From: Nitratidesulfovibrio vulgaris str. Hildenborough
GTDB taxonomy: Bacteria; Desulfobacterota; Desulfovibrionia; Desulfovibrionales; Desulfovibrionaceae
NCBI RefSeq assembly: GCF_000195755.1
Contig: NC_002937.3
Coordinates: 1,800,001 to 1,832,000 of the forward strand
Reading direction: 5' to 3'
DNA length: 32,000 bases
How positions within the stretch are numbered: position 1 is the first letter of the stretch; the number at the start of each line of letters is the position of its first letter. The translations under genes and the position numbers were made by a program. Shown here piece after piece: positions 6,318 through 22,870 of the stretch. Below the pieces are notes generated by a model. The model worked only from the letters and a program-made list of their open reading frames with translations, was not told where the DNA came from and did not search any database.

Positions 6318-6342
6318 AGCCCCGCTCAAGCGGGGCTTCTTC
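6318..6342. terminator. Bidirectional terminator between brnA and the convergent HTH gene
   Basis: AGCCCCGC-tcaa-GCGGGGCT, flanked by AAAAACAGAA upstream and TCTTC downstream. Confidence 0.6.
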
Positions 6343-8577: not shown

Positions 8578-8979
8578 TCACTGCACCCACGACGGCCTCC
8601 GGCCCTCGTTCAGCGCAGCCCGCAACTCGCGCACCCGCGCAAGGTTGCGTTCGCGCATCTCGTCGGTGATTTCCATCGGCTCATCCCCGGTACGCTGCTG
8701 GTCGAGTTGCGCCCGCACCACCGCCATACGCCGCGCCTCCTGCAATCGCTCGTGCGCCGTGCGAATGTCCGCGCTCGTGGGCCAGAACCGCGAATGTGCC
8801 CGCGCCTCGTCCACCGCGTCGTCGAACTCGCCGCAGGTCATGGCCCGGCAGTCCTTGGCGTAGTCTTCCGCTAGCACATCGATGCTCTCTATCTGCCGCG
8901 ACCGCGGATAATGCAGCGCCAGTCGCACCAGCGCGGCCCGCACATGTGCGGCGGTCAGTTTCAGGTCTCTGGCGTTCAT
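8578..8979 (-). CDS. Hypothetical phage protein (possibly replication-associated)
   Basis: 133-aa ORF whose start is ATGA-coupled to the upstream replisome-organizer-like gene. No diagnostic motif recognised. Confidence 0.45.
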   Translation of the reverse strand: MNARDLKLTAAHVRAALVRLALHYPRSRQIESIDVLAEDYAKDCRAMTCGEFDDAVDEARAHSRFWPTSADIRTAHERLQEARRMAVVRAQLDQQRTGDEPMEITDEMRERNLARVRELRAALNEGRRPSWVQ

Positions 8980-9947
8980 GCGCGCACCTCCTTCTGCTTG
9001 CGGGCCTCCTCCAGCAACCGCGAATACGTATCCGGCTCTCGCCCGGCGTCAGATGCCGCTCCCTGCACGTCGTCCACGTCCGGCGACTTGAGCCACCACC
9101 GTTCGGCAAGGAACCGCTTCAGCCCCGGCGCATAGCCACGCTTCCAGCGCGGTGTCTCGCCCCACTCCTCGATGGCCTGTGTGATGCGTGCCAGCCCCGG
9201 CCACACCCGCCCGGCGCGGAGCATCTTGTACGCATCATGCCCGGCAAGCGGAGCCTCGCAGCGGGCAAGACGGTCGTACAACTCGCGCAGTTCGAGAAAC
9301 TCCATGCTCGCGTCCAGCGCACCGTCGAGCACGTCGGGCGCTTCCGGCTCCACCCTGTCGCCCGACCACTCTTCGGCCTCATGGTGTTCAGGGCAAAGCC
9401 CGTCCCCACCCTCGGGCACGTCTACACGCGCCCGCGCGCGACCTTCGTTCACTGTACTACCTTGGGGTGTAGTATTCTTACTTCTTAACTTCTTAGGAGA
9501 AGGAAGAGGGGTTGACGAACCGTTCCACGCTTTTTCCACGCAATCCAACGCTTCGTTGCGATTCGTTTCCGTGCGGTTGAGCTTGCGCTGCCTACGTGCT
9601 TCGGCTGAGGCCTTCCCTGCTACCGAAGCCGCGACCCTCCGCGCCTCACTGCCTGAAACCCACGGGTTGTGCTCCTCCCAGTCATGCAGGCGAAGCCCCT
9701 CCGCATCTTCGTCAATCCACAGGCCAAAGCAGGTGGCAAAGAACCTCCCCTCTTCCCCCTCCCATCCAGCGGCTAGCTCCACGTCTTCACCATCCATACC
9801 CCGCAAGTTGCCATCAGGCCGATTCTGCGCCGCCCATATCCAAAGGACTTGAAGAGCCATCACGCCCTCAAGACCTAACCGCCTGATTGTCTTCTTTGTC
9901 TTCGGGTGTTGCCAGAAACCGACGGAAATGCGTATGTCCGTATTCAC
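8976..9947 (-). CDS. Phage replisome-organizer-like protein
   Basis: Track ORF 8976..10070. I prefer the GTG at 9947, preceded by GAGGAG (complement of 9957-9962) with a 9-nt spacer. The N-terminus FWQHPKTKKTIRRLGLEGVMALQVLWIWAAQNRPDGNL...ELAAGW...FFATCFGLWIDE resembles Phage_rep_org_N-type domains. Weak assignment. Confidence 0.4.
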   Translation of the reverse strand: MNTDIRISVGFWQHPKTKKTIRRLGLEGVMALQVLWIWAAQNRPDGNLRGMDGEDVELAAGWEGEEGRFFATCFGLWIDEDAEGLRLHDWEEHNPWVSGSEARRVAASVAGKASAEARRQRKLNRTETNRNEALDCVEKAWNGSSTPLPSPKKLRSKNTTPQGSTVNEGRARARVDVPEGGDGLCPEHHEAEEWSGDRVEPEAPDVLDGALDASMEFLELRELYDRLARCEAPLAGHDAYKMLRAGRVWPGLARITQAIEEWGETPRWKRGYAPGLKRFLAERWWLKSPDVDDVQGAASDAGREPDTYSRLLEEARKQKEVRA

Positions 9948-9989
9948 TGTTTTGAACTCCTCGCCATAACTCAACACCAAGGAAATCTC

Positions 9990-10328
9990 ATGCCGGAAAC
10001 AAAACTCGAACTGCCACACAGACCCGCAACGACCATCACCTACGAAGATGACTGGGTGTACATCCAGCAAACGGGCGCATCAGGAGACGTTGATCGCGTC
10101 GCACTGCATTCGGATGACCTTCAAACCATCATTGATTTTCTATGCGACATAGCTGGATTGGAGACTCTCGCCCCTAGCTGGCACTCTCCTTGCGTTGCCG
10201 TTGCTGGCCCTGCCTGTCCGCAGGGCCTTTTTGCTGGCCTACTTCACAGTCCCCCCGGCACGGCCTGTTGCCCCACGCCCACCCGCGCGGGCATCGGCCT
10301 AGCCCCTCCGGGCTTGTGGCCTGTCTGA
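9990..10328 (+). CDS. Hypothetical small protein (end uncertain)
   Basis: ATG at 9990 behind AAGGAAA. The first ~65 aa look protein-like. The C-terminal part is low-complexity and runs through a terminator-like hairpin at 10206-10232. Confidence 0.25.
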   Translation: MPETKLELPHRPATTITYEDDWVYIQQTGASGDVDRVALHSDDLQTIIDFLCDIAGLETLAPSWHSPCVAVAGPACPQGLFAGLLHSPPGTACCPTPTRAGIGLAPPGLWPV

Positions 10329-10416
10329 AATGCGGGCAGTCACGATGCCTCATGCCCAATCCGCCTTTGACGCCACACATCGACCACGGTATCTGCACAT
10401 AGAAAGAGGACTCTCC

Positions 10417-10656
10417 ATGCTACAGGCCGTCACCTATGCCGAGGCCCGCCAGAGGCTTGCGGCCATTATGGACAACGTGTCCGACTCCCATCAGCCAACC
10501 ATCATCACGCGCTACAAGGCGCGACCAGTAGTCTTGATGTCGTTCGACGACTACAACAGCATCATGGAGACGGCACATCTGCTTCAGTCTCCCGCCAACG
10601 CCGCACGTCTCCGCGCATCTCTCGAAGCTGTCAGCACAGTTGATAAGCAGAGCTGA
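10417..10656 (+). CDS. Phd/YefM-family antitoxin (no cognate toxin adjacent)
   Basis: MLQAVTYAEARQRLAAIMDNVSDSHQPTIITRYKARPVVLMSFDDYNSIMETAHLLQSPANAARLRASLE. RBS AAGAGGA at 10404-10410. Confidence 0.8.
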   Translation: MLQAVTYAEARQRLAAIMDNVSDSHQPTIITRYKARPVVLMSFDDYNSIMETAHLLQSPANAARLRASLEAVSTVDKQS

Positions 10657-11491: not shown

Positions 11492-12031
11492 ATGCGCTAC
11501 CCAGAGGGTATGGCTTTACAAAACAAATTTCCGATACTTTGGGATTGTTTCCTTCAGCGCATCAATGACGCGCTCAAGGCGACCACGCAGGAAGAGCTTG
11601 GCCGTCGTCTTGGCGTTGGAAAGAGCGCAATCACCAAATGGCGTCATGGCAGCACCAGAGGGGCCGACCTTCAGGACTTCCTCAGGTATTGCGATGTACT
11701 CGGAATTGATTTTTGTGGAATCATCAACGGCACTCCGACACCGACGTATTCACCGTCACCGTTCGAGATAGCCCTTACCGGAGTGCTGGACAGCTTTCTC
11801 TCCGTCCACAACCTCACGCACGAAAAAGCCGCTTCAAGCCTCTGGCCTGAAACGGCGAACGGTGCAGCCAAACTAGGGAGCATACTCACTGCGAAAGAGC
11901 CACTCACCCCTGAAGTGCTCATGCAGCTGTGCTTGCTGATGGAAGAAGACCCCGGCAAACTGCTGCGCCTTGCCCGTGAACGCGTCCAGCCGGAAGGTGA
12001 GCAAATATCCGGCAACGCCAAGTCCGCTTAG
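11492..12031 (+). CDS. CI-like XRE-family HTH regulator
   Basis: TQEELGRRLGVGKSAITKWRHGSTRGADLQDFLRYCDVLGIDF. RBS AAGGAAA is followed by a 5-nt spacer. Confidence 0.6.
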   Translation: MRYPEGMALQNKFPILWDCFLQRINDALKATTQEELGRRLGVGKSAITKWRHGSTRGADLQDFLRYCDVLGIDFCGIINGTPTPTYSPSPFEIALTGVLDSFLSVHNLTHEKAASSLWPETANGAAKLGSILTAKEPLTPEVLMQLCLLMEEDPGKLLRLARERVQPEGEQISGNAKSA

Positions 12032-12173: not shown

Positions 12174-12199
12174 GCCCCCGTCAGGGGGGCTATTTTTTT
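12174..12199 (+). terminator. Rho-independent terminator upstream of the dcm operon
   Basis: GCCCCC-gtcag-GGGGGC followed by TATTTTTTT. Confidence 0.7.
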
Positions 12200-12265
12200 A
12201 CCTGCCCTCTGGGTATACTCCCCCCGGTTCAACAACGTTCATAGCAGCCCACACATTCCCATCGC

Positions 12266-13375
12266 ATGAAGCAGCACACGCCCAAACATACGCCCGCCAA
12301 AGCGGTCGACCTCTTCTGCGGTGCGGGGGGGTTCAGTCTTGCCGCCCGCAATCTGGGTATAGAGGTCGTTGCCGCACTTGAGAACAACCACTATGCTGCC
12401 GCGACATACCGCCATAACTTCATAGAAGGCTCCCGCCGCCCCCCCCTGCTCTTTGAGGGCGACATTCTGGCCATATCGCCAGAAGCCTTCATGCAGGCTG
12501 CAAACCTCACTCCCGGCGGAGTCGATATCATCATGGGCGGCCCTCCCTGTCAGGGTTTTTCCACGCATCGCATCAAAGGGGCAGGGATAGACGACCCCCG
12601 CAACACGCTGCTTCTGCGTTACTTCGAATATGTGCAGGCCATTCGCCCGCGCTATTTTCTTGTCGAGAATGTGCCCGGCCTACTTTGGCCTAGGCACGAA
12701 GAGTACCTGCAAAGATTCTACAAACTGGCTACAGAGGCAGGCTACCATGTCTCTCCACCGCAGGTGCTCAACGCACGCGATTATGGCGTTCCGCAAAACC
12801 GAAAGCGCGTTTTCATTCTCGGCACAGCTGGGGGGCACACTCTGCCAGATTGGCCCCCACGCCCCACACACTTCGCCCCTGAAAGCTCTCAGGTTCGTGC
12901 AGAGGGTCTCCCTGCTTGGTGTACAGCAGCACAAGTTTTCGCCACTGAACTGGCAAACGACGACCCAAACGCCATACACCTCAACCATCGTCCAGAAATG
13001 GTAGAGGTGTTCCGCAGCACCCCGCTCAATGGTGGCAGCCGGCAGCAATCATGCCGCGTTCTTCCCTGCCACCGGAATCATAACGGTCATAAGGATGTAT
13101 ACGGCCGCATCAACCCCGACGCTCCCGGCCCGACCATGACCACAGCTTGCACCAATCCTTCCAAGGGGCGCTTTCTTCACCCTACGCAGCACCACGGCAT
13201 CACAGTGCGTCACGCTGCTCGCTTTCAAACCTTTCCGGAGACGTTCACCTTCAAAGGTGGCATCATGGCTGCCAGCGCACAGGTGGGCAATGCTGTGCCC
13301 ATAGACCTTGGCATGGCTGTCATACGCCCGCTACTAAGCGCTTTACCCGCCTGCATAGCACGCCAAAGTCAGTAG
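12266..13375 (+). CDS. dcm: DNA (cytosine-5)-methyltransferase
   Basis: Motif I DLFCGAGG, motif IV GGPPCQGFS (Cys95), motif VI FLVENVPGL, motif VIII QNRKRVFILG, TV dipeptide (GITVRHAARFQTFPETFTFKG), motif X GNAVP. Confidence 0.95.
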   Translation: MKQHTPKHTPAKAVDLFCGAGGFSLAARNLGIEVVAALENNHYAAATYRHNFIEGSRRPPLLFEGDILAISPEAFMQAANLTPGGVDIIMGGPPCQGFSTHRIKGAGIDDPRNTLLLRYFEYVQAIRPRYFLVENVPGLLWPRHEEYLQRFYKLATEAGYHVSPPQVLNARDYGVPQNRKRVFILGTAGGHTLPDWPPRPTHFAPESSQVRAEGLPAWCTAAQVFATELANDDPNAIHLNHRPEMVEVFRSTPLNGGSRQQSCRVLPCHRNHNGHKDVYGRINPDAPGPTMTTACTNPSKGRFLHPTQHHGITVRHAARFQTFPETFTFKGGIMAASAQVGNAVPIDLGMAVIRPLLSALPACIARQSQ

Positions 13376-13415
13376 ACGCTTTTCTTTTTTATCGTGCCTT
13401 GATACAGGACTGGCT

Positions 13416-16361
13416 ATGTTGAACACAGCCAGCTTCCAGACACGCGCCCGGGCCATAGACCACCTAGGCCGTGGGCAGATAGCAGACGCCCCCACCGCCA
13501 TCAGCGAACTATGGAAGAACGCCTACGACGCATACGCCCGAGGCGTTGAACTACACATTCACTCTGGCAACGTCGTCGTCGCCTCTATCTGCGACAATGG
13601 GCACGGCATGGATGCCGAGACCCTTAGCTCGAAATGGCTTGTGGTTGGCACAGAGAGTAAAGTCGCCTCTCCCGTCCCTGTAGAAGACCGCTTCGGTCTG
13701 CCAGAACGTGCCCGACTTGGTGAAAAGGGCATCGGCCGGCTTTCCGCTGCTTTTCTGTCTCCCGTCACACTTGTTGTCAGCAAACGCGTAGGGCAGCCCT
13801 ATGCTGCCCTGCTTGTAGACTGGCGCTTCTTCGAGAACCCATACCTGTTCATCAACGACGTTAGGTTCCCCCTTGTCGAATTCGGAGAACTTAAAGAGTT
13901 TCCTGCGTTGTTTGCGCAGATGTTCGAAGAACTCAAAGCCAATCTGCAATGGGGCTCAGCCTCACCCCATACCGCCCACCTCGCTGCCGCATGGGACAGG
14001 TTCGACGCCATAGAACGCGAACAAAACCCCAATGCCCCCACAACCCGAGAAGCCATTCTGTCACTCTCCCCTGAAGGGCTCATCAAATGGGACCACTTCT
14101 CTCCTTGGTGGCAGTTGATGCACAAGGCAGTAGAGGGTGACGACGTACACGGCACCGCACTTTTTACTATCGGCGCGAATACCGAACTTGCATGCTGGGT
14201 CACTGACGACGAATATGAAAGCCCAGATATACAAAAGGTCAAAGAAACTCTGACCGAAACACTGGTCAGTTTCGTCGACCCGTTTGAAGACACTCCCATC
14301 GCCTTCGACTATGCCGTAGTCGTTCACAAACCCGGCAAAGCTGACTTCATTCCCGTTTCTTCCGAAGAAGTTTTTGACATCCAAGAGCTTCGTAGCCTCG
14401 AACATGTCATCGAAGGCGAATTTGACACCGCTGGCAACTTTCAGGGCAGAATAACGGCTTTCGGCAAAGACCGTGGCGAATGCTTTCTGCCATCTCCATC
14501 AGTTTTCACACAACGTGGCAAGGATAGCGTCGGGCCATTCAGGTTTTGCCTTGGCACGTTTGAGCAAGACAAAAAGAACACTACACACTCAGACGAAGAA
14601 TTCGAGTATCACTCGAGTCAAGTTAATAAATATGGCGGGATATGCATCCACCGTGATGGTCTCCGGGTCATGCCCTATGGGCGTGAGGATGGGGACTTAT
14701 TTAGGATGGAATTCCGCCGTTCAAAACATGCTGGACGAGAGTTTTTTGTCTATCGCCGCAGCTTCGGTCGTTTGGCGATTACCAGTCAGCACAACCCCAA
14801 CCTCAAAGATAAGGCTGGCCGTGAAGGACTGGTTGTCAACAAAGCCCGCCGTGAATTCGAACGACTTGTCATCAATCTGTTGATGTATGTTGCACGCGAA
14901 TATTTTGGAACGGCATCCACTATCCGCAATCAAGAACTCCCTGGCATTCAGAAGGCACGCCAAAGGCAGATGCGGGCAGCAGAAACGGCCCGCAAGCGCA
15001 ACCAGAAGAATTTCGTCCGGGCACTCAAAGAGAAGTTACCCTTGGCGCTTGAAGCCAGCACGCGGGCAGAAGCCGGGGCTGACAAACTGGAACAGACCCT
15101 AGCATGCAAAGCGTACGACGACCTGCCTGCCATCAAGATGGAACTCGACGCATTGCAGGGGCTGCGCGACGACCTGCGCATCCCCAACCGCCCAGATGAG
15201 CTTGGTAGCCAAGAAGAAGACTATAGAAGATACCGCGATGCCTATGCCTTGTTCTGCGCCACCATTGACAAGCTCAAGTCCATGCTCGCCCGGTGTGAGG
15301 CAGAAGGTCTGCTAGGCGACCCTAAACGTATCGCCACATCAAAGTTCTATAGCAACGAAGCGCGCATCTCCAGCCAGATAGGCAAAGCCCTGTCTACCAT
15401 CACCTCTAGCCTAGATGCGCTACGCACCACATGGGAAGAGAACGCCAGAGAAGACAGAACGGCGTACCGGCGCAAGTCCACGGAATTCGTCAGCATGCTC
15501 GAAGCTGGGCAAGGCTTGACCCCGGTACTCGACTACCTAGACAAAGTACACACCGAACTCAGTGACGAACTGAACCTCAAATACGACGGCATCATCCATA
15601 GCCTAGAACAACTCGTCGAAGGTGTAGACCTTGAAGGTGCCTTCTTTCATGTAGATGAGGTGAACCGGTCGCTTGAAGAAAAAGTATCCATGCTCAACTC
15701 TGTGGCACAACTCGGCATCAGTGTCGAAATCATCGGCCATGAGTTAGAAGCACTCGAATCTCAGGTCACGCGCTACCTCAAACTTATGCCCAAAGAGGTG
15801 CGCGCCCTCAAAAGTTACACCCTTGCGTTCGAAGCGCACCGTGCCCTTGTAGACCGACTGCGATTTCTGGCACCTCTGCGAAAAACTTCGTACCGCAGCC
15901 GCATCGCCATCTCGGGTAAAGAGATTGCCAAGTACGTCAAAGAGTTCTTCGGCACCACATTCGAGCAATGCCGCATCCAGTTCGAAGTTACCCCTGCGTT
16001 TGAAGGTTTCTCCATCAGAGACCTACCATCCCGCATCTACCCCACCTTCATCAACCTTGTGAACAATGCTCTCTACTGGGTGCAACGTGGTGAAAGAAGG
16101 ATAATCCGCCTCGACTTTGTGCAAGGCAAAGCCATTGTCGCAGATAGCGGACCGGGTGTTGATGAAGACGACCAGAAGCACCTGTTCGAATTGTTCTTCA
16201 CAAAACGAACCAACGGGCGCGGTGTGGGGTTATACCTCTGTCGCGAAAACCTTGCAGTTGCCCGCCACAGCATCCGCTACGCAACAGATAATGACCCCGA
16301 AGTCCTCGAAGGGGCTAACTTCATCATCGAATTCCACGAGGTTGAACATGTCTCCCGCTAA
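13416..16361 (+). CDS. Double-GHKL protein: N-terminal MORC/HATPase_c_3-like ATPase fused to a C-terminal histidine-kinase core (no TM or known sensor domain)
   Basis: N-terminal Bergerat motifs: ELWKN35AYDA, D60NGHGMD, G102EKGIGRLS, and later GGICIHRDGLRVMPYG (as in prokaryotic MORC-like proteins). A coiled-coil-like middle follows. C-terminal kinase boxes: H-box SVEIIGH775ELEAL, N-box NLVNN884ALYW, G1 D910SGPGVD, F-box FELFFT, G2 G934RGVGLYL. Confidence 0.75.
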   Translation: MLNTASFQTRARAIDHLGRGQIADAPTAISELWKNAYDAYARGVELHIHSGNVVVASICDNGHGMDAETLSSKWLVVGTESKVASPVPVEDRFGLPERARLGEKGIGRLSAAFLSPVTLVVSKRVGQPYAALLVDWRFFENPYLFINDVRFPLVEFGELKEFPALFAQMFEELKANLQWGSASPHTAHLAAAWDRFDAIEREQNPNAPTTREAILSLSPEGLIKWDHFSPWWQLMHKAVEGDDVHGTALFTIGANTELACWVTDDEYESPDIQKVKETLTETLVSFVDPFEDTPIAFDYAVVVHKPGKADFIPVSSEEVFDIQELRSLEHVIEGEFDTAGNFQGRITAFGKDRGECFLPSPSVFTQRGKDSVGPFRFCLGTFEQDKKNTTHSDEEFEYHSSQVNKYGGICIHRDGLRVMPYGREDGDLFRMEFRRSKHAGREFFVYRRSFGRLAITSQHNPNLKDKAGREGLVVNKARREFERLVINLLMYVAREYFGTASTIRNQELPGIQKARQRQMRAAETARKRNQKNFVRALKEKLPLALEASTRAEAGADKLEQTLACKAYDDLPAIKMELDALQGLRDDLRIPNRPDELGSQEEDYRRYRDAYALFCATIDKLKSMLARCEAEGLLGDPKRIATSKFYSNEARISSQIGKALSTITSSLDALRTTWEENAREDRTAYRRKSTEFVSMLEAGQGLTPVLDYLDKVHTELSDELNLKYDGIIHSLEQLVEGVDLEGAFFHVDEVNRSLEEKVSMLNSVAQLGISVEIIGHELEALESQVTRYLKLMPKEVRALKSYTLAFEAHRALVDRLRFLAPLRKTSYRSRIAISGKEIAKYVKEFFGTTFEQCRIQFEVTPAFEGFSIRDLPSRIYPTFINLVNNALYWVQRGERRIIRLDFVQGKAIVADSGPGVDEDDQKHLFELFFTKRTNGRGVGLYLCRENLAVARHSIRYATDNDPEVLEGANFIIEFHEVEHVSR

Positions 16362-18114
16362 TGCTGCAATCATCGATGAAGCCTACATATCCCCCATCAA
16401 AAGCATACTTTTTATAGACGACAAATTTCCAACTCACGCAGACTTGCTCAAGAAATCGCTCACCACCGACACAGAAGAAGAGCATATTGAAGCAAACCTG
16501 CGCGATATTGCTACTGAAAACCAATTTGACCATGAAGAAGACAACACTCACAATGGAAATATAGACATCGAAGAAATACAAGAAGAACATGACCGTAGTA
16601 TAGATGAGCATGTCCTACGATTAACACAATCTTGCAGGGAAAATGGCTACATATTTGACGTAGAAAACAACCTCGAATGCATCGAAAGAGATGAATATGC
16701 TTTTATAAACAAATCAGACCTTGTTGTGCTAGACTACTTCCTAACAGAAGGTGAAGATTCATCTCACGCTCTTAAAATAATACATAGCCTTGCACAATCA
16801 AAAAGATACAATCTAATTATCGTCCATTCTACAAAAGAAAAACAAGACGTTGCATCTGAGATTTTATTCTCAATGAAGAATATTACGTATGAAAATACCG
16901 AACGCGAAGAACTCGCGAATGCCGCTGCTATAGAAGCTATTGTCAATGAAAACATACGTCATATACTAGACGGCTCAGAAGAACATATAAAAACGATATG
17001 CAGCCTTGCTGGTTCAGCATCAAAAGAAAAGGTCATTTATTTCACAAATCAAATAATTAGTAATAATTTTCGGAGTACAACAAAATCTAAATCTGACCTC
17101 GTCTTACAAAGCGATATCGCTTCAAGCACCACTCCATGGATAGCTGCAAAAAATGCTTTTATTGTTGTCACACAAAAAGATATAGCTTCTGAACAAGACA
17201 TCAATAACCTCATACAAGAGCTGAAAACTGCGCTTACGGAATACGACCCGGGAATCATCACAAAGGCACTACATAAATTTGCAAATATATCAAAAGAAAA
17301 CATTTACGAGATTCTTAACTCATCATTCTCAACACCAGAAATCCGTGCTGCGGCACTATTAACAGCCCTTAACGGAATTTCAAGCATAGAGACACATCCT
17401 CACAAGGCTAACATTATCGCAAATAGAATCACACATGCCATACTTTCTGCAGCAAGCACAGGCATTGCATCTAAAGCAGACCAGTTTTGCATAAACTGCA
17501 TTGACTCGCTACAAATAGAAAATGAAGCCACAATCCATAGAGCTTGCACTACTGCTGAGAACGCAAACTGCACCATGGATAAAATCTTCCTTCATGCAAA
17601 CGCCATGGCTTGTTGCGAACAAAAACCTCACCACTACATAACTACAGGCAGTATCTTTACGCAGGAAGACAAATCATGGATGTGCGTAACACCATCGTGC
17701 GACCTGGCTCGAGGTGAAGACTTTAACGCAAGCAAAATAATATTTATAGAAGCCATTAAGCTTACTAAAATTACTGATAGCAACAGAATAGCAAAGGCAC
17801 TCAAAGATGCTCATAAAGGGTTATATATTTTTGTAAAGACTACGACAGGCGTAGATGTGTACTCTCCATACAACGATAGTAAACCGAATCTACACATTGA
17901 TAACTTTTTTATTCGTGGAACAACATTTCTCACCATTGACGACACTATAAGGCTATACACGGTTGAAGCTGACGAAGTGGGATATTCCGTCATGTCTCAA
18001 CAAAGCAACGTCATTGCTCAACTCAGGCCAGACTACGCAAGCAGATTCCTGTCAGAAAAAGGCGCGTGGAAATCCCGCATCGGGGTCGACTTCTTTCAGT
18101 ATAAACCAGAGTAG
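16348..18114 (+). CDS. Receiver (REC)-like domain protein with acidic insertion and uncharacterised C-terminal domain
   Basis: Track ORF 16117..18114 trimmed to the ATG at 16348, a 14-nt overlap with the upstream stop at 16359-16361. SILFID24D25KFP, DLVVLD129YFL and NLIIVHS161T162 reproduce the REC acidic pocket, phospho-acceptor and Thr/Ser positions. aa 30-95 form a D/E-rich insert. aa ~175-588 have no motif I recognise. The gene is strongly AT-rich. Confidence 0.6.
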   Translation: MSPANAAIIDEAYISPIKSILFIDDKFPTHADLLKKSLTTDTEEEHIEANLRDIATENQFDHEEDNTHNGNIDIEEIQEEHDRSIDEHVLRLTQSCRENGYIFDVENNLECIERDEYAFINKSDLVVLDYFLTEGEDSSHALKIIHSLAQSKRYNLIIVHSTKEKQDVASEILFSMKNITYENTEREELANAAAIEAIVNENIRHILDGSEEHIKTICSLAGSASKEKVIYFTNQIISNNFRSTTKSKSDLVLQSDIASSTTPWIAAKNAFIVVTQKDIASEQDINNLIQELKTALTEYDPGIITKALHKFANISKENIYEILNSSFSTPEIRAAALLTALNGISSIETHPHKANIIANRITHAILSAASTGIASKADQFCINCIDSLQIENEATIHRACTTAENANCTMDKIFLHANAMACCEQKPHHYITTGSIFTQEDKSWMCVTPSCDLARGEDFNASKIIFIEAIKLTKITDSNRIAKALKDAHKGLYIFVKTTTGVDVYSPYNDSKPNLHIDNFFIRGTTFLTIDDTIRLYTVEADEVGYSVMSQQSNVIAQLRPDYASRFLSEKGAWKSRIGVDFFQYKPE

Positions 18115-18136
18115 CACATACCCCTCGAATCGATTC

Positions 18137-18162
18137 CTGCCCCGCTCCGGCGGGGCTTTCTT
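18137..18162 (+). terminator. Rho-independent terminator ending the dcm operon
   Basis: CTGCCCCGC-tccg-GCGGGGC-TTTCTT. Identical 26-mer to 19505-19530. Confidence 0.7.
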
Positions 18163-18242
18163 CTTCCTATTCCTGCTGCAATTTTACTAAATCGTCTTTC
18201 TTGTATATCCATATCTGCACACCATCTATGACAGGTGCTCCT

Positions 18243-19118
18243 ATGGGTATTTCCGCACTCTTCCTGTTCTGTCTCATTCTTGGTGGCGGCTTCTACGCCG
18301 GGGTTCAGTGGCAACAACAGCGCACACCTCCCCGTGTGCCTCCCGCGCAGCCCGCGCCCCCTTCATACTCACCCCCACCCTACCTCGAAGACCAACCGCC
18401 CCCGCGCCGACAGCCAGCCCGACGCAAGGCAGACTGGCCATCCTCTTCTAGCCGTCAAACAGAACCAGAACGCTACGAGGCCAAGCTGCGAAGCGACCCG
18501 GTGTTGCTCAACACACTTAAGGCCGAACTTATGGCACGAGAGCACCACCTCATGCGGGTGCTCAACAACTTCATCGAGGGCAACACAGGCCAGCACATGC
18601 AGGCCGACCCGTTCTACCTCTACCCAGAGATTGCCAGCACCAGCCCGGAAGAATTCCTCAACACGCTGGGCACACGCCTTCAGCACACCAACTTCCCCGA
18701 CCTAGCCGACGACGGTAAGGGGTGGGTCTATGTTCTTGCAAACTATGCCATGCCCGGTGTGGTCAAAATCGGCTATTCCACAAAGCCAGCCCTACGCGCC
18801 GCAGAGCTATCCGTCTTGCGCACCGTAGATGAGAACGGGCTTAGCGTGACCAACCGGACATCACTCCCCCGCCCCTTCAAGCTCCAATTCTGTGTGTTGC
18901 GCCCTAACGCTCGCGCTTCAGAGCAGTACATCCATGAACTGCTCGCCCCCTACAACATACGGGAAGAAGGAGGTATGGCAGGTACGGAGTTCTTCGCCCT
19001 GTCAGTAGAGCAAGCTTACGACGCGCCCTACTACACCTTCCCAGATGAAACCTTCCACTTTGCCGCCTTTCACGACTCATGTTTCTTCTTCGGTAGAAAG
19101 GACGACACATTACAGTGA
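18243..19118 (+). CDS. Membrane-anchored T5orf172/MUG113 (GIY-YIG-related) domain protein
   Basis: N-terminal hydrophobic helix ISALFLFCLILGGGFYAGV, then a Pro-rich linker. The C-terminus has GWVYVLANYAMPGVVKIGYSTKPALRAAEL ... SEQYIHELLAPY ... GTEFFAL, typical of the T5orf172 domain. Start uncertain (TTG 18201, ATG 18228 or ATG 18243). Confidence 0.6.
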   Translation: MGISALFLFCLILGGGFYAGVQWQQQRTPPRVPPAQPAPPSYSPPPYLEDQPPPRRQPARRKADWPSSSSRQTEPERYEAKLRSDPVLLNTLKAELMAREHHLMRVLNNFIEGNTGQHMQADPFYLYPEIASTSPEEFLNTLGTRLQHTNFPDLADDGKGWVYVLANYAMPGVVKIGYSTKPALRAAELSVLRTVDENGLSVTNRTSLPRPFKLQFCVLRPNARASEQYIHELLAPYNIREEGGMAGTEFFALSVEQAYDAPYYTFPDETFHFAAFHDSCFFFGRKDDTLQ

Positions 19119-19504: not shown

Positions 19505-19530
19505 CTGCCCCGCTCCGGCGGGGCTTTCTT
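19505..19530 (+). terminator. Rho-independent terminator (second copy of the 26-mer)
   Basis: CTGCCCCGCTCCGGCGGGGCTTTCTT, identical to 18137-18162. Confidence 0.7.
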
Positions 19531-20240: not shown

Positions 20241-20334
20241 CCTCACGCGCCGCACGCTCTGCGCCGTCGCCATGCTCGCGGCCCTGTTCTGCCTCTATGC
20301 CGCTGGCGACGCTCTCTCGGGGAATGCGCTGTGA
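20227..20334 (+). CDS. Possible 35-aa hydrophobic peptide
   Basis: My translation is MQQHSLTRRTLCAVAMLAALFCLYAAGDALSGNAL. Its stop overlaps (GTGA) the GTG start of the next gene. Too short for the ORF track. Confidence 0.25.
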   Translation: MQQHSLTRRTLCAVAMLAALFCLYAAGDALSGNAL

Positions 20335-20738
20335 CCCGCGAAGAGTTCGACGCTGCGTTCGACCGCATCTACAGCATCACAGAGACGACAACACAGGTCG
20401 CGTTGTCAGAGGTGCTCGGCATCCGGCAATCCAGCGTGTCTGATGCACGCAAGCGCAACTCCATCCCTGGGGCATGGCTCGTCACGCTGGTCGACCGTTT
20501 CTCCGCAAACCCGGCGTGGATCCTCACAGGCGAGGGGCCACGCTACCTGCTGCCCAGCGACTCGCGCGACGAGATGACCCTCTCAGAAGAGACAGTCGCG
20601 AAGATACGCGCCGAAGCCATCGCAGAGGGCCGACGTGCCGCCATCAACGACCTGAATACGGATGACGTCTTTACGCTTGTGCGCGAGCGCCTGCCGCAGG
20701 GCACGGTGCTACGCTACTCAGGCGAGGTTACGGCATGA
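20331..20738 (+). CDS. Phage CI-repressor-type HTH protein
   Basis: TQVALSEVLGIRQSSVSDARKRNSIPGAWLVTLVDRFSANPAWILTGEGP matches the Phage_CI_repr pattern (kR..iP..W......g.np.WlltG.G). Confidence 0.6.
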   Translation: MTREEFDAAFDRIYSITETTTQVALSEVLGIRQSSVSDARKRNSIPGAWLVTLVDRFSANPAWILTGEGPRYLLPSDSRDEMTLSEETVAKIRAEAIAEGRRAAINDLNTDDVFTLVRERLPQGTVLRYSGEVTA

Positions 20739-21371: not shown

Positions 21372-21635
21372 ATGCAACAGACGCAAGACCAGTTCGACGA
21401 AGCAGTCACCAAGGCATTCCGCGATGCGGCGGAAACACAGCGCATCCTGTCCTTGCCCTACATCACTGCCACAGAGGCAGCCAAGGTCTACCCCATCGGC
21501 AAGTCCACGCTCGACAAGATGCGCGCCAAGAGGACGGGCCCCGTGTACTTCCATGTCTCCGGCAAGGCCAACGCCTTTTATACCCACGAAGACATCCGCA
21601 CGTGGCTCAACAAGCATCGTCAGCGGGTGATGTAG
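21372..21635 (+). CDS. Excisionase/AlpA-like HTH protein
   Basis: YITATEAAKVYPIGKSTLDKMRAKRTGPVYFHVSGKANAFYTHEDIRTWL. GAGGA RBS. Its 3' end is convergent with and overlaps the integrase. Confidence 0.6.
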   Translation: MQQTQDQFDEAVTKAFRDAAETQRILSLPYITATEAAKVYPIGKSTLDKMRAKRTGPVYFHVSGKANAFYTHEDIRTWLNKHRQRVM

Positions 21636-22728
21636 GCAACTCGGGCAGCAACGCCATCGCGTCGTGTTTCGTGTCCGGAGATAGCTTCGAATACCGCTTC
21701 GTCATCTCAAGCGATGAGTGCCCCATCAATACGGCTATCGTATAGAGGGGCACTCCTCGTTGGGCGAGCCACGAACCGAACGTGTGCCGCAACGTGTGAA
21801 AGACGACCTTGTGCCGGGCATCTGTCACGCCGTCGTTGAAAAGCTCATCAGCAACGCGCGAGAACACGGACGAGATGTATCGAACCCTTCCGCCACCTCT
21901 CTGTACGAAGACGAATTCCTTCGCATCCCGGCCAGCGCATCTGGCAGCGAGTATCTCTTTCACACCAGCCGTCATATAGGCGGCCCTCGTGCCCGCCTTC
22001 GCGTCCATGACGTCGATGACCCCGTCCGCCACGTTCACATGCCCCACCTGTAGGCCCAGCACCTCGCCAAGCCGCATGCCGGTGTAAAGAGACAGGTACG
22101 CGATGTCGTGCCACTGACGGCTGCGCCTGTGGAGTGCGTGCAGCAGGCTCGCCGCCTCCGCCTCGGTCAGAAAGCGGAGACGCGCCGCATCGACCTTGGG
22201 CATCTCCACCCCGTCGGTCGGGCTCGTGCCGGTGTAGATGCCCCACGCCACGCACTTCCTGTAGACCTGCCGCACCAGCGCGATTGCATGTCGTATCGTC
22301 TGTGGCGACCGCCCCTTCTCCGCCATCGACCGCTTGAGCTCCTCGATGTGGATGGGCTTGATCCTGTCCATCTTCGCATCCCCGAAGAGAGGGGCGATGT
22401 GGTGCTCGAAGTACCCTCGCATGTGACTTTCAGACGACTTGCCTTTGGCATGAACCGTCAAGTATCGCTCCAGGGCATCGCGAAAGACAGGCATCTCGTC
22501 GCGTGCGATGAACCGCCCGGCCTCGACCTCCTTGACCCGCTCAGCCCGCACACGAGCGGCATACGCGGCGTTGACGCCTTCGCTCTTACGCCCTATTGTC
22601 TCCCACACTTTCTTGCCGCCATGGCGGTAGGCTATGTCGAAGGCGATGTCCTGCTTGCCAGACACCCGGTGAATCACGAGTCTTTCGTATACTCCCGGAT
22701 ACTTAGTAGAGCTTCGCTGACTGGCCAT
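21607..22728 (-). CDS. int: Tyrosine integrase (phage integrase family)
   Basis: Full two-domain architecture. LYTGMRLGEVLGLQVGHV (Arg I), FHTLRHTFGSWL (H-x-x-R), LMGHSSLEMTKRYSKL (His...Tyr). Start moved to the ATG at 22728 behind GGGAGGA (the track starts at 22749). Confidence 0.9.
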   Translation of the reverse strand: MASQRSSTKYPGVYERLVIHRVSGKQDIAFDIAYRHGGKKVWETIGRKSEGVNAAYAARVRAERVKEVEAGRFIARDEMPVFRDALERYLTVHAKGKSSESHMRGYFEHHIAPLFGDAKMDRIKPIHIEELKRSMAEKGRSPQTIRHAIALVRQVYRKCVAWGIYTGTSPTDGVEMPKVDAARLRFLTEAEAASLLHALHRRSRQWHDIAYLSLYTGMRLGEVLGLQVGHVNVADGVIDVMDAKAGTRAAYMTAGVKEILAARCAGRDAKEFVFVQRGGGRVRYISSVFSRVADELFNDGVTDARHKVVFHTLRHTFGSWLAQRGVPLYTIAVLMGHSSLEMTKRYSKLSPDTKHDAMALLPELPTSPADDAC

Positions 22729-22870
22729 AGGTTCCTCCCGTGCTACCACCCTGCTACCACACGATGGAATTCCGGGGCAATGCGGGGAACCGCAAGAAAA
22801 CGTAACAACCTGTTATCAAAAGAATTGAACACACGAAGACGGTACAGGAATCAGCTGAAAACGGCCTTTA

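What the first reader, a model, noticed from the sequence alone, without database searches (positions are those of the whole stretch)
12174..18162. Terminator-bracketed operon dcm / double-GHKL histidine-kinase fusion / receiver-domain effector: candidate undescribed methylation-linked phosphorelay defence system
Seen in the sequence:
- Three co-oriented genes: a C5-MTase with all canonical motifs (12266-13375), a 40-nt gap, a 981-aa protein (13416-16361), then a 588-aa protein (16348-18114) that overlaps the previous gene by 14 nt.
- Hairpin/T-tract terminators at 12174-12199 and 18137-18162 isolate the unit.
- No restriction endonuclease, Vsr, helicase or DNA-binding response regulator is present.
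- The unit sits as cargo between regulatory genes of an integrative element that also carries Avs-like and AbiC-like genes.

Established: prokaryotic MORC/paraMORC-type GHKL ATPases were described by comparative genomics as partners of methylases in R-M-like operons (Iyer, Abhiman, Aravind 2008). His-Asp phosphorelays normally end in transcription factors.

Inference: the MTase marks self DNA. The MORC-like module senses foreign or unmodified DNA. His775 to Asp129 phosphotransfer then gates the unknown C-terminal effector. From memory I cannot match this trio to BREX, DISARM, Druantia, Mza, Gabija, Lamassu or other named systems.
Basis: partly seen in the sequence, partly recalled or inferred. 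Interest (0 to 1): 0.9.

Follow-up and report, generated by a model that had tools for sequence, protein, structure and literature searches.

The report
Methylase-linked kinase–receiver operon, already described
This three-gene operon (a cytosine methylase, a MORC-like ATPase fused to a histidine kinase, and a receiver protein with an unknown tail) is real, but it belongs to a family described by comparative genomics in 2021, and what that family does is still untested.

Summary
The three co-oriented genes, the 14-nt overlap, the flanking hairpins and the residues C95, N35, H775 and D129 are all as stated.

The claim that the system is undescribed does not hold. The kinase carries Pfam HEF_HK (PF19191) between two GHKL domains. 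The receiver protein carries Response_reg_2 (PF19192). Both families were defined by Bellieny-Rabelo et al. 2021, who reported 91.6% linkage of the pair and an upstream C5-methylase. I recovered the same trio in about 25 loci from Acidobacteriota to Vibrio, including a prophage and a bare trio on a Pantoea megaplasmid.

The closest tested relative is Ambrosia (2025 preprint). Its kinase AbrB is homologous to this one. Its methylase, receiver and HNH nuclease are not.

Two things remain open:
- The receiver's conserved C-terminal domain (residues 423-588) gave a confident model but matched no Pfam family or known fold, and shows no nuclease motif.
- The receiver gene behaves as a recombination cassette. 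Against a near-identical relative, dS is about 1.3, while the methylase, kinase and downstream gene have dS of about 0.03.

Most likely this is a restriction-modification-related defence module that signals from His775 to Asp129. The mechanism is inferred, not shown.

The parts
12174..12199 (+). Upstream boundary: G+C-rich hairpin (GCCCCCGTCAGGGGGGC) followed by a T-tract. It is the likely terminator of the preceding XRE gene.
12266..13375 (+). C5 cytosine DNA methyltransferase, 369 aa. The catalytic Cys95 codon is at 12548-12550.
   Evidence: PF00145 E=1.4e-59 and TIGR00675 165.8 bits. Motifs FCGAGG, PPCQ, ENV, QNRKR and GNAV are present. Orthologous MTases sit next to the kinase-receiver pair in nearly all loci.
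13416..16361 (+). 981-aa soluble paraMORC-histidine-kinase fusion. This is the 'group 1' HEF_HK architecture: HATPase_c_3 + HEF_HK + HATPase_c.
13494..13832 (+). N-terminal MutL/MORC/Hsp90-type GHKL ATPase core (aa 27-139). E31, N35 (codon 13518-13520), D60xGxG and G102xxGxG are invariant.
   Evidence: HATPase_c_3 E=3e-12. PMS2/MutL PDB hits at 1e-4. hhalign probability 98.4% to the N-terminus of a BbrUII/HgiDII-family enzyme. Invariant columns.
14628..14855 (+). Most conserved block of the middle region (aa 405-480; IYRDGLRVMPYGR and DKAGREG). I interpret it as the S5/transducer part of a GHKL+S5 module. That is an inference from the motifs, not a tested assignment.
   Evidence: Invariant columns. 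The same block aligns with Ambrosia AbrB (36% identity, E=2e-7). No Pfam or PDB sequence hit.
15708..15896 (+). HEF_HK DHp/H-box (aa 765-827). The phospho-accepting His775 codon is at 15738-15740, followed by Glu776.
   Evidence: PF19191 25.6 bits against a cut-off of 24.1. H775-E776 are invariant in 22 orthologs.
16029..16337 (+). Histidine-kinase catalytic (CA) GHKL domain (aa 872-974) with N-box N880/N884, the G1 box (invariant G912) and the G2 box (G934xGxG938).
   Evidence: HATPase_c E=1.2e-15. PDB sensor kinase 3a0t E=1.5e-12. Invariant columns.
16348..17253 (+). Receiver (Response_reg_2) domain of the 588-aa protein. Key residues are D24/D25, phospho-acceptor D129 (codon 16732-16734), S161 and K277-...-P301. 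It carries two insertions: an acidic, disordered one at aa 34-85 and a helical one at aa 177-262.
   Evidence: PF19192 63.1 bits against a cut-off of 27. Conservation over 152 sequences. Foldseek REC hits with probability above 0.9. Model.
17254..17613 (+). Helical linker region (aa 303-422). It is modelled with low confidence and ends in the invariant N418.
17614..18114 (+). Family-specific C-terminal beta-rich domain (aa 423-588) plus the stop codon. Its fold and function are unknown. Conserved residues: T433, G434, C446, P449, C451 (100%), D452 (D/N), R560, Y563, R566, R577, G579, D581.
   Evidence: Domain model pLDDT 80.7, pTM 0.78. No Foldseek match in PDB or BFVD with E<0.1. No PDB sequence match. 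No Pfam, NCBIfam, PADLOC or PHROG hit. Present in nearly all of the 150 listed family representatives, out of 970 clusters.
18137..18162 (+). Downstream boundary: hairpin GCCCCGCTCCGGCGGGGC followed by TTTCTTCTTC. The same hairpin recurs at 19507-19524 and a variant at 6319-6336, so it is a recurrent module terminator of this island.

Best explanation
The unit is a member of the HEF_HK/Response_reg_2 two-component-like family that travels with a C5 cytosine methyltransferase. Most likely it is a mobile, restriction-modification-related defence module.

Shown:
- It is a tight three-gene operon.
- The MTase has all catalytic motifs.
- The 981-aa soluble protein joins an intact MutL/MORC-type GHKL ATPase (plus a conserved S5-like block and a long helical region) to a complete histidine-kinase core.
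- The 588-aa partner has a complete receiver pocket and a conserved C-terminal domain of unknown fold.
- The trio is conserved across phyla and sits in prophages, integrative elements and defence islands.

Inferred:
- The MTase constitutively marks host DNA. The frequent Vsr neighbours suggest this.
- The MORC-like module is the sensor. It may respond to DNA state or to an infection cue.
- Sensing triggers autophosphorylation of His775 and transfer to Asp129.
- Phosphorylation switches on the receiver's C-terminal domain, which delivers the output.

The nature of that output (nuclease, another enzyme, or DNA or protein binding) is not established. In this lineage the receiver gene is exchanged as a cassette on a fixed MTase-kinase backbone. 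So the receiver allele is not tuned to the MTase's sequence specificity.
For: Family assignment: Pfam HEF_HK, Response_reg_2, HATPase_c_3, HATPase_c and DNA_methylase, all above their curated cut-offs. The family is described in PMC8011034.

Catalytic competence: E31, N35, D60xGxG, G102xxGxG, H775-E776, N880/N884, G912 and G934xGxG are invariant in 22 kinases. D24, D25, D129, T/S161 and K277 are 88-100% conserved in 152 receiver proteins.

Conserved trio: MTase + kinase + receiver in about 25 loci from many phyla, often with overlapping genes. There is a bare trio between transporter genes on a Pantoea megaplasmid, and a copy inside a prophage between the terminase and portal genes.

Constitutive methylation: Vsr is adjacent in L003, L007, L009, L021, L022 and L023.

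Defence context in the window: PD-Lambda-4_A, an AbiC/AbiP-like gene, PDC-S57, an integrase and a CI-like repressor.

Experimental precedent: Ambrosia needs the AbrB GHKL residue N40 and the AbrC residue D60 for anti-phage activity, and AbrB is homologous to this kinase (E=9e-15 and 2e-7). Detocs shows that a His-Asp relay can gate a non-transcriptional effector.

The C-terminal domain is a fixed, constrained part of the family: the representatives are full length, dN/dS is 0.13, and C451, N418 and G434 are 100% conserved.
Against: No member of this exact family has been tested for defence in the literature I could search.

The C-terminal domain has no recognisable nuclease or other effector motif. 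The window's E471/K474 pair is not conserved. It has no structural neighbour and no informative fusions in 72 members.

Its divergence tracks the kinase (partial r=0.71), not the MTase (-0.21). Different receiver alleles sit next to a 100% identical MTase. So a classical cognate enzyme that reads the same motif as the MTase is unlikely.

In Ambrosia, methylation did not protect phage, and the authors favour transcriptional control.

In L013 the MTase appears split into two ORFs while the kinase and receiver genes are intact. If real, this argues against a lethal restriction activity held in check by methylation.
Confidence: 0.5

Rival explanations
1. The pair is a regulatory two-component system. 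The kinase-receiver pair controls transcription of the MTase, or of R-M and defence genes elsewhere, and the receiver protein acts as a DNA-binding regulator through its helical insertion or its C-terminal domain. This is the proposal of the 2021 paper and the working model for Ambrosia.
For: The authors of PMC8011034 propose a signalling cascade that controls R-M systems. Ambrosia reporters are induced on infection, and AbrC is described as REC+wHTH. The C-terminal domain has several conserved arginines (R560, R566, R577) and no nuclease motif. The REC insertion at aa 177-262 is a confident helical module.
Against: Pfam, NCBIfam and Foldseek detect no HTH or other DNA-binding domain. In most loci there is nothing besides the MTase to regulate; the bare trio is an example. 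The absolutely conserved Cys, Asn and Gly residues look more like an active or ligand site than a DNA-reading surface. Ambrosia's AbrC is a different, 209-aa receiver that is unrelated to this protein. A dedicated 981-aa ATPase-kinase is heavy machinery for autoregulating a methylase.
Confidence: 0.22
2. The unit is an abortive-infection or addiction module. The receiver's C-terminal domain is a toxin against the host (not a DNA-targeting restriction activity). It is released by phosphorylation on infection or on loss of the element. The MTase serves mainly as the element's epigenetic mark or as an antidote.
For: Detocs works this way. The unit sits on mobile elements next to Abi-type genes. 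Receiver alleles are exchanged as cassettes independently of the MTase. The trio is sporadic and horizontally distributed.
Against: The C-terminal domain shows no similarity to any known toxin or effector domain. Universal coupling to a C5-MTase and the frequent Vsr neighbours point to a DNA-methylation-centred logic.
Confidence: 0.15
3. The unit is an ordinary Type II R-M system whose restriction enzyme is the GHKL protein. This is what HMM-based annotators suggest, because the protein hits PADLOC REase_II and NCBIfam BbrUII/HgiDII.
For: PADLOC REase_II PDLC03419 E=3e-12 and NCBIfam NF050001 E=1.7e-16 on the 981-aa protein. DefenseFinder labels the homologous AbrB as a Type II REase.
Against: The hits cover only aa 12-135. 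The NCBIfam score is 59.9 bits against a cut-off of 550. A genuine family member from a Campylobacter plasmid (E=5e-100 over its full length) shares only its first ~130 residues with the kinase and nothing with the receiver protein. The rest of the 981-aa protein is an S5-like block, a helical region and a complete kinase core.
Confidence: 0.04
4. The adjacency is fortuitous: an orphan Dcm-type methylase happens to lie next to an unrelated two-component pair.
For: A 40-nt gap separates the MTase and kinase genes in the window. MTase subfamilies differ among loci.
Against: The same three-gene arrangement is present in about 25 loci across phyla, often with 4-8-nt overlaps. The published linkage figure is 91.6%.
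Confidence: 0.01

Closest known systems
HEF_HK / Response_reg_2 two-component-like system with upstream C5-MTase (Bellieny-Rabelo, Pretorius & Moleleki 2021, Genome Biol Evol 13:evab024; Pfam PF19191 and PF19192)
   Same: Everything that defines it is present: the group-1 kinase architecture (HATPase_c_3 + HEF_HK + HATPase_c), a Response_reg_2 partner encoded immediately downstream, an upstream DNA_methylase gene, and the paraMORC-like N-terminus. The window's operon is a member.
   Different: There is no difference in architecture. That paper is purely computational. It found no domain in the receiver's C-terminal part and proposed a regulatory role. This window adds a member without Vsr or HNH, and shows the receiver gene behaving as a recombination cassette.
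Ambrosia (AbrR-AbrA-AbrB-AbrC-AbrD; van den Berg et al., bioRxiv 10.1101/2025.09.30.679545)
   Same: It combines an MTase with a GHKL/Hsp90-like histidine-kinase protein and a receiver protein in one cluster. AbrB is homologous to the window's kinase in the GHKL (40% identity, E=9e-15) and in the S5-like block (E=2e-7). An XRE gene lies upstream in both. Ambrosia is experimentally anti-phage and depends on the GHKL Asn and the receiver Asp.
   Different: Ambrosia has an N6-adenine MTase where the window has a C5-MTase. Its kinase is 747 aa against 981 aa. Its receiver is a 209-aa canonical REC protein that has no similarity to the 588-aa Response_reg_2 protein and lacks the C-terminal domain. 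Ambrosia also has a dedicated HNH nuclease, which is absent here. Its proposed mode is transcriptional control.
Detocs (DtcA-DtcB-DtcC; Rousset et al. 2023, bioRxiv 10.1101/2023.01.24.525353)
   Same: It is a defensive His-Asp relay in which a receiver domain is fused to a non-transcriptional effector, and the relay residues are required for defence.
   Different: The Detocs kinase has TPR sensor repeats, not a MORC-like GHKL. Detocs has a buffer receiver (DtcB) and no methylase. Its effector domains are recognisable and swappable (PNP, REase, Toprim, TM), whereas here a single orphan C-terminal domain is fixed across the family.
paraMORC / GHKL restriction enzymes (Iyer, Abhiman & Aravind 2008; NCBIfam NF050001 BbrUII/HgiDII family)
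   Same: Both have an N-terminal MutL/MORC-type GHKL with intact ATP-binding motifs, and both are genomically coupled to cytosine methylases and Vsr.
   Different: Those proteins carry a nuclease or other C-terminal module in the same chain and have no kinase core or receiver partner. Only about 130 residues are shared. Iyer et al. did not describe the kinase fusion.

Membership tests
HEF_HK/Response_reg_2 TCS-like system (PMC8011034) | Kinase-like protein with the HEF_HK DHp domain and a conserved His followed by an acidic residue | tested here: met
   PF19191 scores 25.6 bits against a cut-off of 24.1, at aa 765-827. H775-E776 are invariant in 22 orthologs.
HEF_HK/Response_reg_2 TCS-like system (PMC8011034) | Group-1 architecture: N-terminal HATPase_c_3 + HEF_HK + C-terminal HATPase_c | tested here: met
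   HATPase_c_3 at aa 27-139 (47.1 bits) and HATPase_c at aa 872-974 (58.3 bits).
HEF_HK/Response_reg_2 TCS-like system (PMC8011034) | Partner protein with the Response_reg_2 domain and conserved acidic pocket, Asp, Thr/Ser and Lys | tested here: met
   PF19192 scores 63.1 bits against a cut-off of 27. D24, D25, D129, S161 and K277 are conserved.
HEF_HK/Response_reg_2 TCS-like system (PMC8011034) | Kinase and receiver genes adjacent (within three genes) | tested here: met
   The genes overlap by 14 nt. The same adjacency is seen in all related loci.
HEF_HK/Response_reg_2 TCS-like system (PMC8011034) | C5 DNA_methylase gene in the immediate neighbourhood, typically upstream | tested here: met
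   PF00145 E=1.4e-59, 40 nt upstream of the kinase gene.
HEF_HK/Response_reg_2 TCS-like system (PMC8011034) | Soluble (no transmembrane segments) kinase-like protein | not tested
   I ran no TM predictor. No hydrophobic stretch is evident in the translation.
Ambrosia (bioRxiv 2025.09.30.679545) | AbrB-type GHKL/Hsp90-like kinase protein | tested here: inconclusive
   The first 400 aa of AbrB align with the window's kinase in the GHKL (E=9e-15) and the S5-like block (E=2e-7). The C-terminal 347 aa of AbrB were not available. The lengths differ (747 against 981 aa).
Ambrosia (bioRxiv 2025.09.30.679545) | AbrA N6-adenine MTase | tested here: not met
   The window's MTase is a C5 cytosine methylase.
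Ambrosia (bioRxiv 2025.09.30.679545) | AbrC short REC-type response regulator | tested here: not met
   No BLASTP similarity between AbrC (209 aa) and the 588-aa protein. AbrC does not hit Response_reg_2.
Ambrosia (bioRxiv 2025.09.30.679545) | AbrD HNH endonuclease in the cluster | tested here: not met
   There is no HNH gene between the hairpins or in the flanks. An HNH gene follows the receiver gene only in L020 and L026.
Detocs | Three genes: TPR-containing sensor kinase, stand-alone buffer receiver, and receiver fused to a recognised effector (PNP, REase, Toprim or TM) | tested here: not met
   There are no TPR repeats, no stand-alone receiver gene, and no recognisable effector domain.
BbrUII/HgiDII-family Type II restriction enzyme (NF050001) | Full-length match to the family model above its curated cut-off | tested here: not met
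   The score is 59.9 bits against a cut-off of 550, and only aa 12-135 align. A real member shares only its N-terminal ~130 aa.
MORC/paraMORC GHKL+S5 ATPases (Iyer et al. 2008) | N-terminal GHKL with intact ATP-binding motifs | tested here: met
   E31, N35, D38, D60xGxG64, G102xxGxG107 and G246-T247 are invariant. MutL and PMS2 PDB hits.
MORC/paraMORC GHKL+S5 ATPases (Iyer et al. 2008) | S5-fold transducer domain after the GHKL | tested here: inconclusive
   A strongly conserved block lies at aa 405-480, in the position of a MutL/MORC transducer, but it has no Pfam or PDB hit.

The most novel reading that the evidence does not exclude
The receiver's C-terminal domain (aa 423-588) is a new kind of phosphorylation-gated immune effector. 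It has a fold not represented among the solved or viral predicted structures that were searched, and an invariant Cys451-(Asp/Asn)452 together with N418, R560, R566, R577 and D581. The system discriminates DNA through a MORC-like ATPase coupled to 5mC marking, not through a sequence-matched nuclease. Divergent effector alleles circulate as cassettes on a fixed MTase-kinase backbone, as an arms-race device.
Probability: 0.3. Interest if true: 0.75.

Novelty: new member of a known kind. Interest (0 to 1): 0.45.

Why it matters
The family is widespread: 970 clusters of the receiver protein at 50% identity. It is repeatedly mobile and always tied to cytosine methylation, yet none of its members has been tested.

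If it is a defence system, it would link three things in one operon: epigenetic marking, a MORC-type ATPase (the prokaryotic cousin of eukaryotic chromatin silencers) and His-Asp signalling. It would also add an effector domain of unknown fold.

The practical value of this window is limited. It offers a compact, terminator-bracketed, apparently intact example, and natural allelic variants of the receiver gene on an otherwise identical backbone. Those variants make convenient material for swap experiments.

It also flags an annotation pitfall. HMM tools can label the kinase a Type II restriction enzyme from a match to only its first ~130 residues.

Tried and rejected
1. PD-(D/E)xK nuclease in the receiver tail. 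The window has D452 and E471-x-x-K474 on suitable strands, but E471 and K474 are not conserved across 152 sequences, and Foldseek finds no nuclease fold. Rejected.

2. The tail as a split-off nuclease half of a BbrUII/HgiDII GHKL restriction enzyme. hhalign of a genuine family member against the receiver alignment gives probability 0.3%. This test has low power, because it was a single sequence against a profile. Not supported.

3. The tail reads the same DNA motif as the MTase. Its divergence tracks the kinase, not the MTase, and different receiver alleles sit with a 100% identical MTase. Rejected as a classical cognate pair.

4. In-situ diversifying selection on the receiver gene. dN/dS is 0.18 with saturated dS. 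Rejected in favour of allele replacement by recombination.

5. XRE or T5orf172 as conserved fourth components. Neither is found beside the trio in other lineages. T5orf172 is retained only in the near-identical L032.

6. Informative domain fusions. 72 long family members carry only Response_reg_2.

7. A nuclease hidden in the kinase. The middle region is accounted for by Bergerat-fold motif IV, an S5-like block and a helical region.

8. The word-indexed profile search with A1 added no new homologs.

10. A 3D clustering test of the conserved residues was not possible, because model coordinates are not exposed.

Full report
**1. Observation**

The region holds three co-oriented ORFs at 12266-13375 (369 aa), 13416-16361 (981 aa) and 16348-18114 (588 aa from the ATG). 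A 40-nt gap separates the first two, and the last two overlap by 14 nt. G+C-rich hairpins followed by T-rich tracts lie at 12174-12199 and 18137-18162.

There are two refinements to the context:
- An XRE-type HTH gene (11492-12031) lies before the first hairpin, and a T5orf172/GIY-YIG-superfamily gene (18201-19118) lies just after the second.
- The large neighbour at 2141-5941 is a full-length PD-Lambda-4_A homolog (E=0), not an Avs. The AbiC/AbiP-like gene is confirmed.

**2. What the proteins are**

The first gene is a C5 cytosine methylase (PF00145, E=1.4e-59) with all its motifs.

The second protein has three Pfam domains: HATPase_c_3 (aa 27-139), HEF_HK (aa 765-827) and HATPase_c (aa 872-974).
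- In an alignment of 22 orthologs, the ATP-binding residues of both GHKL modules and the H-box His775-Glu776 are invariant.
- Against the PDB, the C-terminus matches sensor-kinase catalytic domains (3a0t, E=1.5e-12), and the N-terminus matches PMS2 and MutL (E=1e-4).
- The middle region has a strongly conserved block at aa 405-480 (IYRDGLRVMPYGR, DKAGREG). I read this as the S5/transducer part of a MutL/MORC-type module. That is an inference from the motifs and from my knowledge of MutL and MORC. No database hit supports it.
- The PADLOC REase_II and NCBIfam BbrUII/HgiDII hits cover only aa 12-135, and the NCBIfam score is 59.9 bits against a cut-off of 550.

The third protein carries Response_reg_2 (63.1 bits) and nothing else in Pfam, NCBIfam, PADLOC or PHROGs.

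**3. It is already described**

HEF_HK (PF19191) and Response_reg_2 (PF19192) were defined by Bellieny-Rabelo, Pretorius and Moleleki (2021, PMC8011034). That paper reports:
- 91.6% linkage of the two genes in 644 regions;
- a prevalent upstream C5-methylase;
- enrichment of R-M genes, Vsr and HNH nearby;
- the 'group 1' HATPase_c_3 + HEF_HK + HATPase_c architecture;
- a proposed derivation from paraMORCs.

The work is purely computational. It found no domain in the receiver's C-terminal part and suggested a regulatory role. Iyer et al. 2008 did not describe the kinase fusion or the receiver partner. I found no experimental paper on this family. DefensePredictor only lists a HATPase + REC system among its unvalidated predictions.

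**4. Conservation**

The exhaustive profile search found 970 clusters of the receiver protein at 50% identity, 438 of them at E<=1e-30. Nearly all of the 150 listed hits are full length at 560-650 aa.

In 23 genome loci and 4 metagenome loci, the kinase and receiver genes are always adjacent. Where the contig allows it, a C5-MTase is present. It is usually upstream and co-oriented, sometimes convergent downstream, and it belongs to one of two subfamilies.

The XRE and T5orf172 neighbours are not conserved outside the window's closest relative. The accessory genes vary:
- Vsr in six loci (L003, L007, L009, L021, L022, L023);
- HNH in two (L020, L026);
- large ORC/Cdc6-like ATPases in two (L015, L019);
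- GIY-YIG in one (L007).

A Pantoea megaplasmid carries the bare trio, with 4- and 8-nt overlaps, between transporter genes. One copy sits in a prophage between the terminase and portal genes. E. coli prophage records carry remnants. The autonomous unit is therefore the three genes.

**5. The receiver protein**

Across 152 sequences, D24, D25, D129 (100%), T/S161 and K277 (100%) define an intact receiver pocket. The window's receiver domain has two insertions: an acidic, disordered one at aa 34-85 and a helical one at aa 177-262.

The C-terminal domain is conserved family-wide. Its conserved residues are N418 (100%), T433, G434 (100%), C446, P449, C451 (100%), D452 (80%, otherwise mostly N), R560, Y563, R566, R577, G579 and D581.

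A domain-only AlphaFold model is confident (pLDDT 80.7, pTM 0.78). Foldseek finds nothing in the PDB or BFVD with E<0.1 or TM>0.35 for the PDB hits. The full-length model matches only receiver domains. A profile search of PDB sequences finds nothing significant. The 72 longest family members carry no additional domains. The window's E471/K474 pair, which could have suggested PD-ExK, is not conserved.

I therefore cannot call this domain a nuclease. It is an orphan domain under purifying selection.

**6. Relation to tested systems**

Ambrosia (van den Berg et al. 2025 preprint) comprises an XRE, an N6-MTase, a HATPase kinase (AbrB), a REC protein (AbrC) and an HNH nuclease (AbrD). It protects P. 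aeruginosa from phages, and protection is lost with AbrB N40A and AbrC D60A.

From the supplement I recovered AbrB residues 1-400 and full-length AbrC.
- AbrB aligns with the window's kinase in the GHKL (40% identity, E=9e-15) and in the S5-like block (E=2e-7).
- AbrC (209 aa) shows no similarity to the 588-aa receiver protein and does not hit Response_reg_2.

So Ambrosia shares the sensor lineage but not the MTase type, the receiver or the nuclease. Detocs shows that a His-Asp relay can gate a non-transcriptional effector, but it has a TPR kinase, a buffer receiver, swappable known effectors and no methylase. A genuine BbrUII/HgiDII-family enzyme from a Campylobacter plasmid (E=5e-100) shares only its first ~130 residues with the kinase (hhalign probability 98.4%) and nothing with the receiver protein (probability 0.3%).

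**7. A new observation: the receiver gene is a recombination cassette**

The receiver gene has 39% G+C against 53-58% for its neighbours. This drop is seen only in the window's lineage.

The comparison with L032, which has the same four-gene order, gives the following:

| Gene | Amino-acid identity | dS |
|---|---|---|
| MTase | 100% | 0.030 |
| Kinase | 98.8% | 0.033 |
| Receiver | 67% | 1.29 |
| T5orf172 | 95.4% | 0.035 |

For the receiver gene dN/dS is 0.18. dS rises from the last 80 codons of the kinase gene (0.12) through the first codons of the receiver gene and is saturated from about residue 177.

Against Nitratidesulfovibrio oxamicus (L005), the kinase is 88% identical but the receiver protein only 44%. 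DNA identity collapses about 100 nt into the receiver gene.

So anciently diverged receiver alleles have been exchanged by recombination on a fixed MTase-kinase backbone. This is not in-situ positive selection. Across all loci, divergence of the C-terminal domain tracks the kinase (partial r=0.71), not the MTase (-0.21). Both results argue that the receiver protein is not a sequence-matched partner of the MTase. The pairwise correlations are descriptive only, because the loci are phylogenetically related.

**8. Mechanism**

The best-supported reading is an R-M-related mobile defence module.
- The MTase marks host DNA. The frequent Vsr neighbours imply constitutive 5mC on host DNA.
- The MORC-like ATPase is the sensor.
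- His775 to Asp129 transfer activates the receiver's C-terminal domain.

Only the anatomy, the conservation and the genomic context are shown. The signal, the role of methylation and the output are inferred. I put 0.5 on this as a whole. That combines about 0.95 for family membership, about 0.65 for a defence role, and about 0.35 for methylation marking self with the C-terminal domain as effector.

The main rival, at 0.22, is the regulatory model of the 2021 paper and of Ambrosia. Against it:
- no DNA-binding domain is detectable;
- in most loci there is nothing else to regulate;
- the invariant Cys, Asn and Gly residues look like an active or ligand site.

An abortive-infection or addiction variant gets 0.15. 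A plain Type II R-M reading (0.04) and chance adjacency (0.01) are essentially excluded.

One point counts against a lethal, methylation-checked restriction activity. In L013 the MTase appears split into two ORFs while the kinase and receiver genes are intact. I did not verify this.

**9. Verdict**

It is a new member of a family already described in 2021, with a partly homologous, experimentally validated cousin (Ambrosia) and a mechanistic precedent (Detocs).

What remains of interest is the orphan C-terminal domain and the cassette-like exchange of the receiver gene.

Interest is 0.45. Novelty: new member of a known kind.

Noticed in passing
window 16348-18114 compared with L032:4551-6314 and L005:2275-4044: The receiver gene is a recombination cassette. 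It is 67% identical (dS about 1.3, dN/dS 0.18) inside a block where the MTase, kinase and T5orf172 are 95-100% identical (dS about 0.03). Against N. oxamicus the kinase is 88% identical and the receiver 44%. The junctions lie at the kinase 3' end and near the terminator.
   Followed up: yes
window 16350-18000: G+C drops to 0.32-0.45 in the receiver gene, against 0.53-0.58 in the MTase and kinase genes and about 0.6 in the surroundings. This is seen only in the window's lineage (window, L005, L032), not in 18 other loci.
   Followed up: yes
window 6319-6336, 18139-18156, 19507-19524: The same terminator-like hairpin (GCCCCGCTCCGGCGGGGC followed by TTTCTT) occurs after the trio and again after the next gene pair. 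A 2-mismatch variant follows the PD-Lambda-4 gene. That is 3 matches against 0.02 expected by chance. It looks like a recurrent module-boundary element of the island.
   Followed up: partly
I did not look for a PD-Lambda-4 B partner downstream.
   Followed up: partly
window 18201-19118 (+): This 305-aa protein has an N-terminal hydrophobic segment, a proline-rich linker and a C-terminal T5orf172/MUG113 (GIY-YIG superfamily) domain. It matches the PADLOC candidate PDC-S57. It is retained next to the trio in L032 (95% identity) but not in other lineages, so it is probably an independent module.
   Followed up: partly
L013:3843-5036 (Magnetospirillum sulfuroxidans): The MTase upstream of an intact kinase-receiver pair is split into two ORFs (182 + 149 aa) and lacks roughly residues 157-223. 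This is either a pseudogene or an assembly error. If real, the pair can persist without its methylase.
   Followed up: no
L003:5355-11908 and L004: A Vsr + MTase + kinase + receiver block sits as a moron inside a prophage, between the large terminase (GpA) and portal genes.
   Followed up: partly
L031 (Klebsiella variicola plasmid pBM374-1) 3676-8545: This is an Ambrosia-like cluster: an N6-MTase, a GHKL 'ATP-binding protein' annotated in three pieces (frameshifted?), a 168-aa receiver protein that matches NCBIfam NF052378 (LM5578_1851 family response regulator), a 224-aa unknown protein, and an HTH regulator nearby.
   Followed up: no
L015:9817-13806 and L019:4568-8317: In two Mesorhizobium loci a 1250-1330-aa ORC/Cdc6-like AAA protein is encoded directly after the receiver gene. 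In L020 and L026 a 255-aa HNH protein takes that position, and in L007 a GIY-YIG protein precedes the MTase. The accessory genes vary around a fixed trio.
   Followed up: partly
plasmid collection hits H16 and H17 and 25 further Campylobacter plasmids (e.g. L030:2959-6031): A two-gene C5-MTase + BbrUII/HgiDII-family GHKL restriction enzyme unit is common on conjugative Campylobacter plasmids. RefSeq labels the enzyme only 'ATP-binding protein'.
   Followed up: partly
window 8976-10070 (-), 10330-10656 (+), 20331-20738 (+), 21607-22749 (-): The element's backbone comprises a phage-type replication-initiation protein, a Phd/YefM antitoxin with no obvious toxin partner called, a CI-type repressor and a tyrosine integrase. 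No tRNA gene lies in the window, so the integration site is not visible.
   Followed up: no
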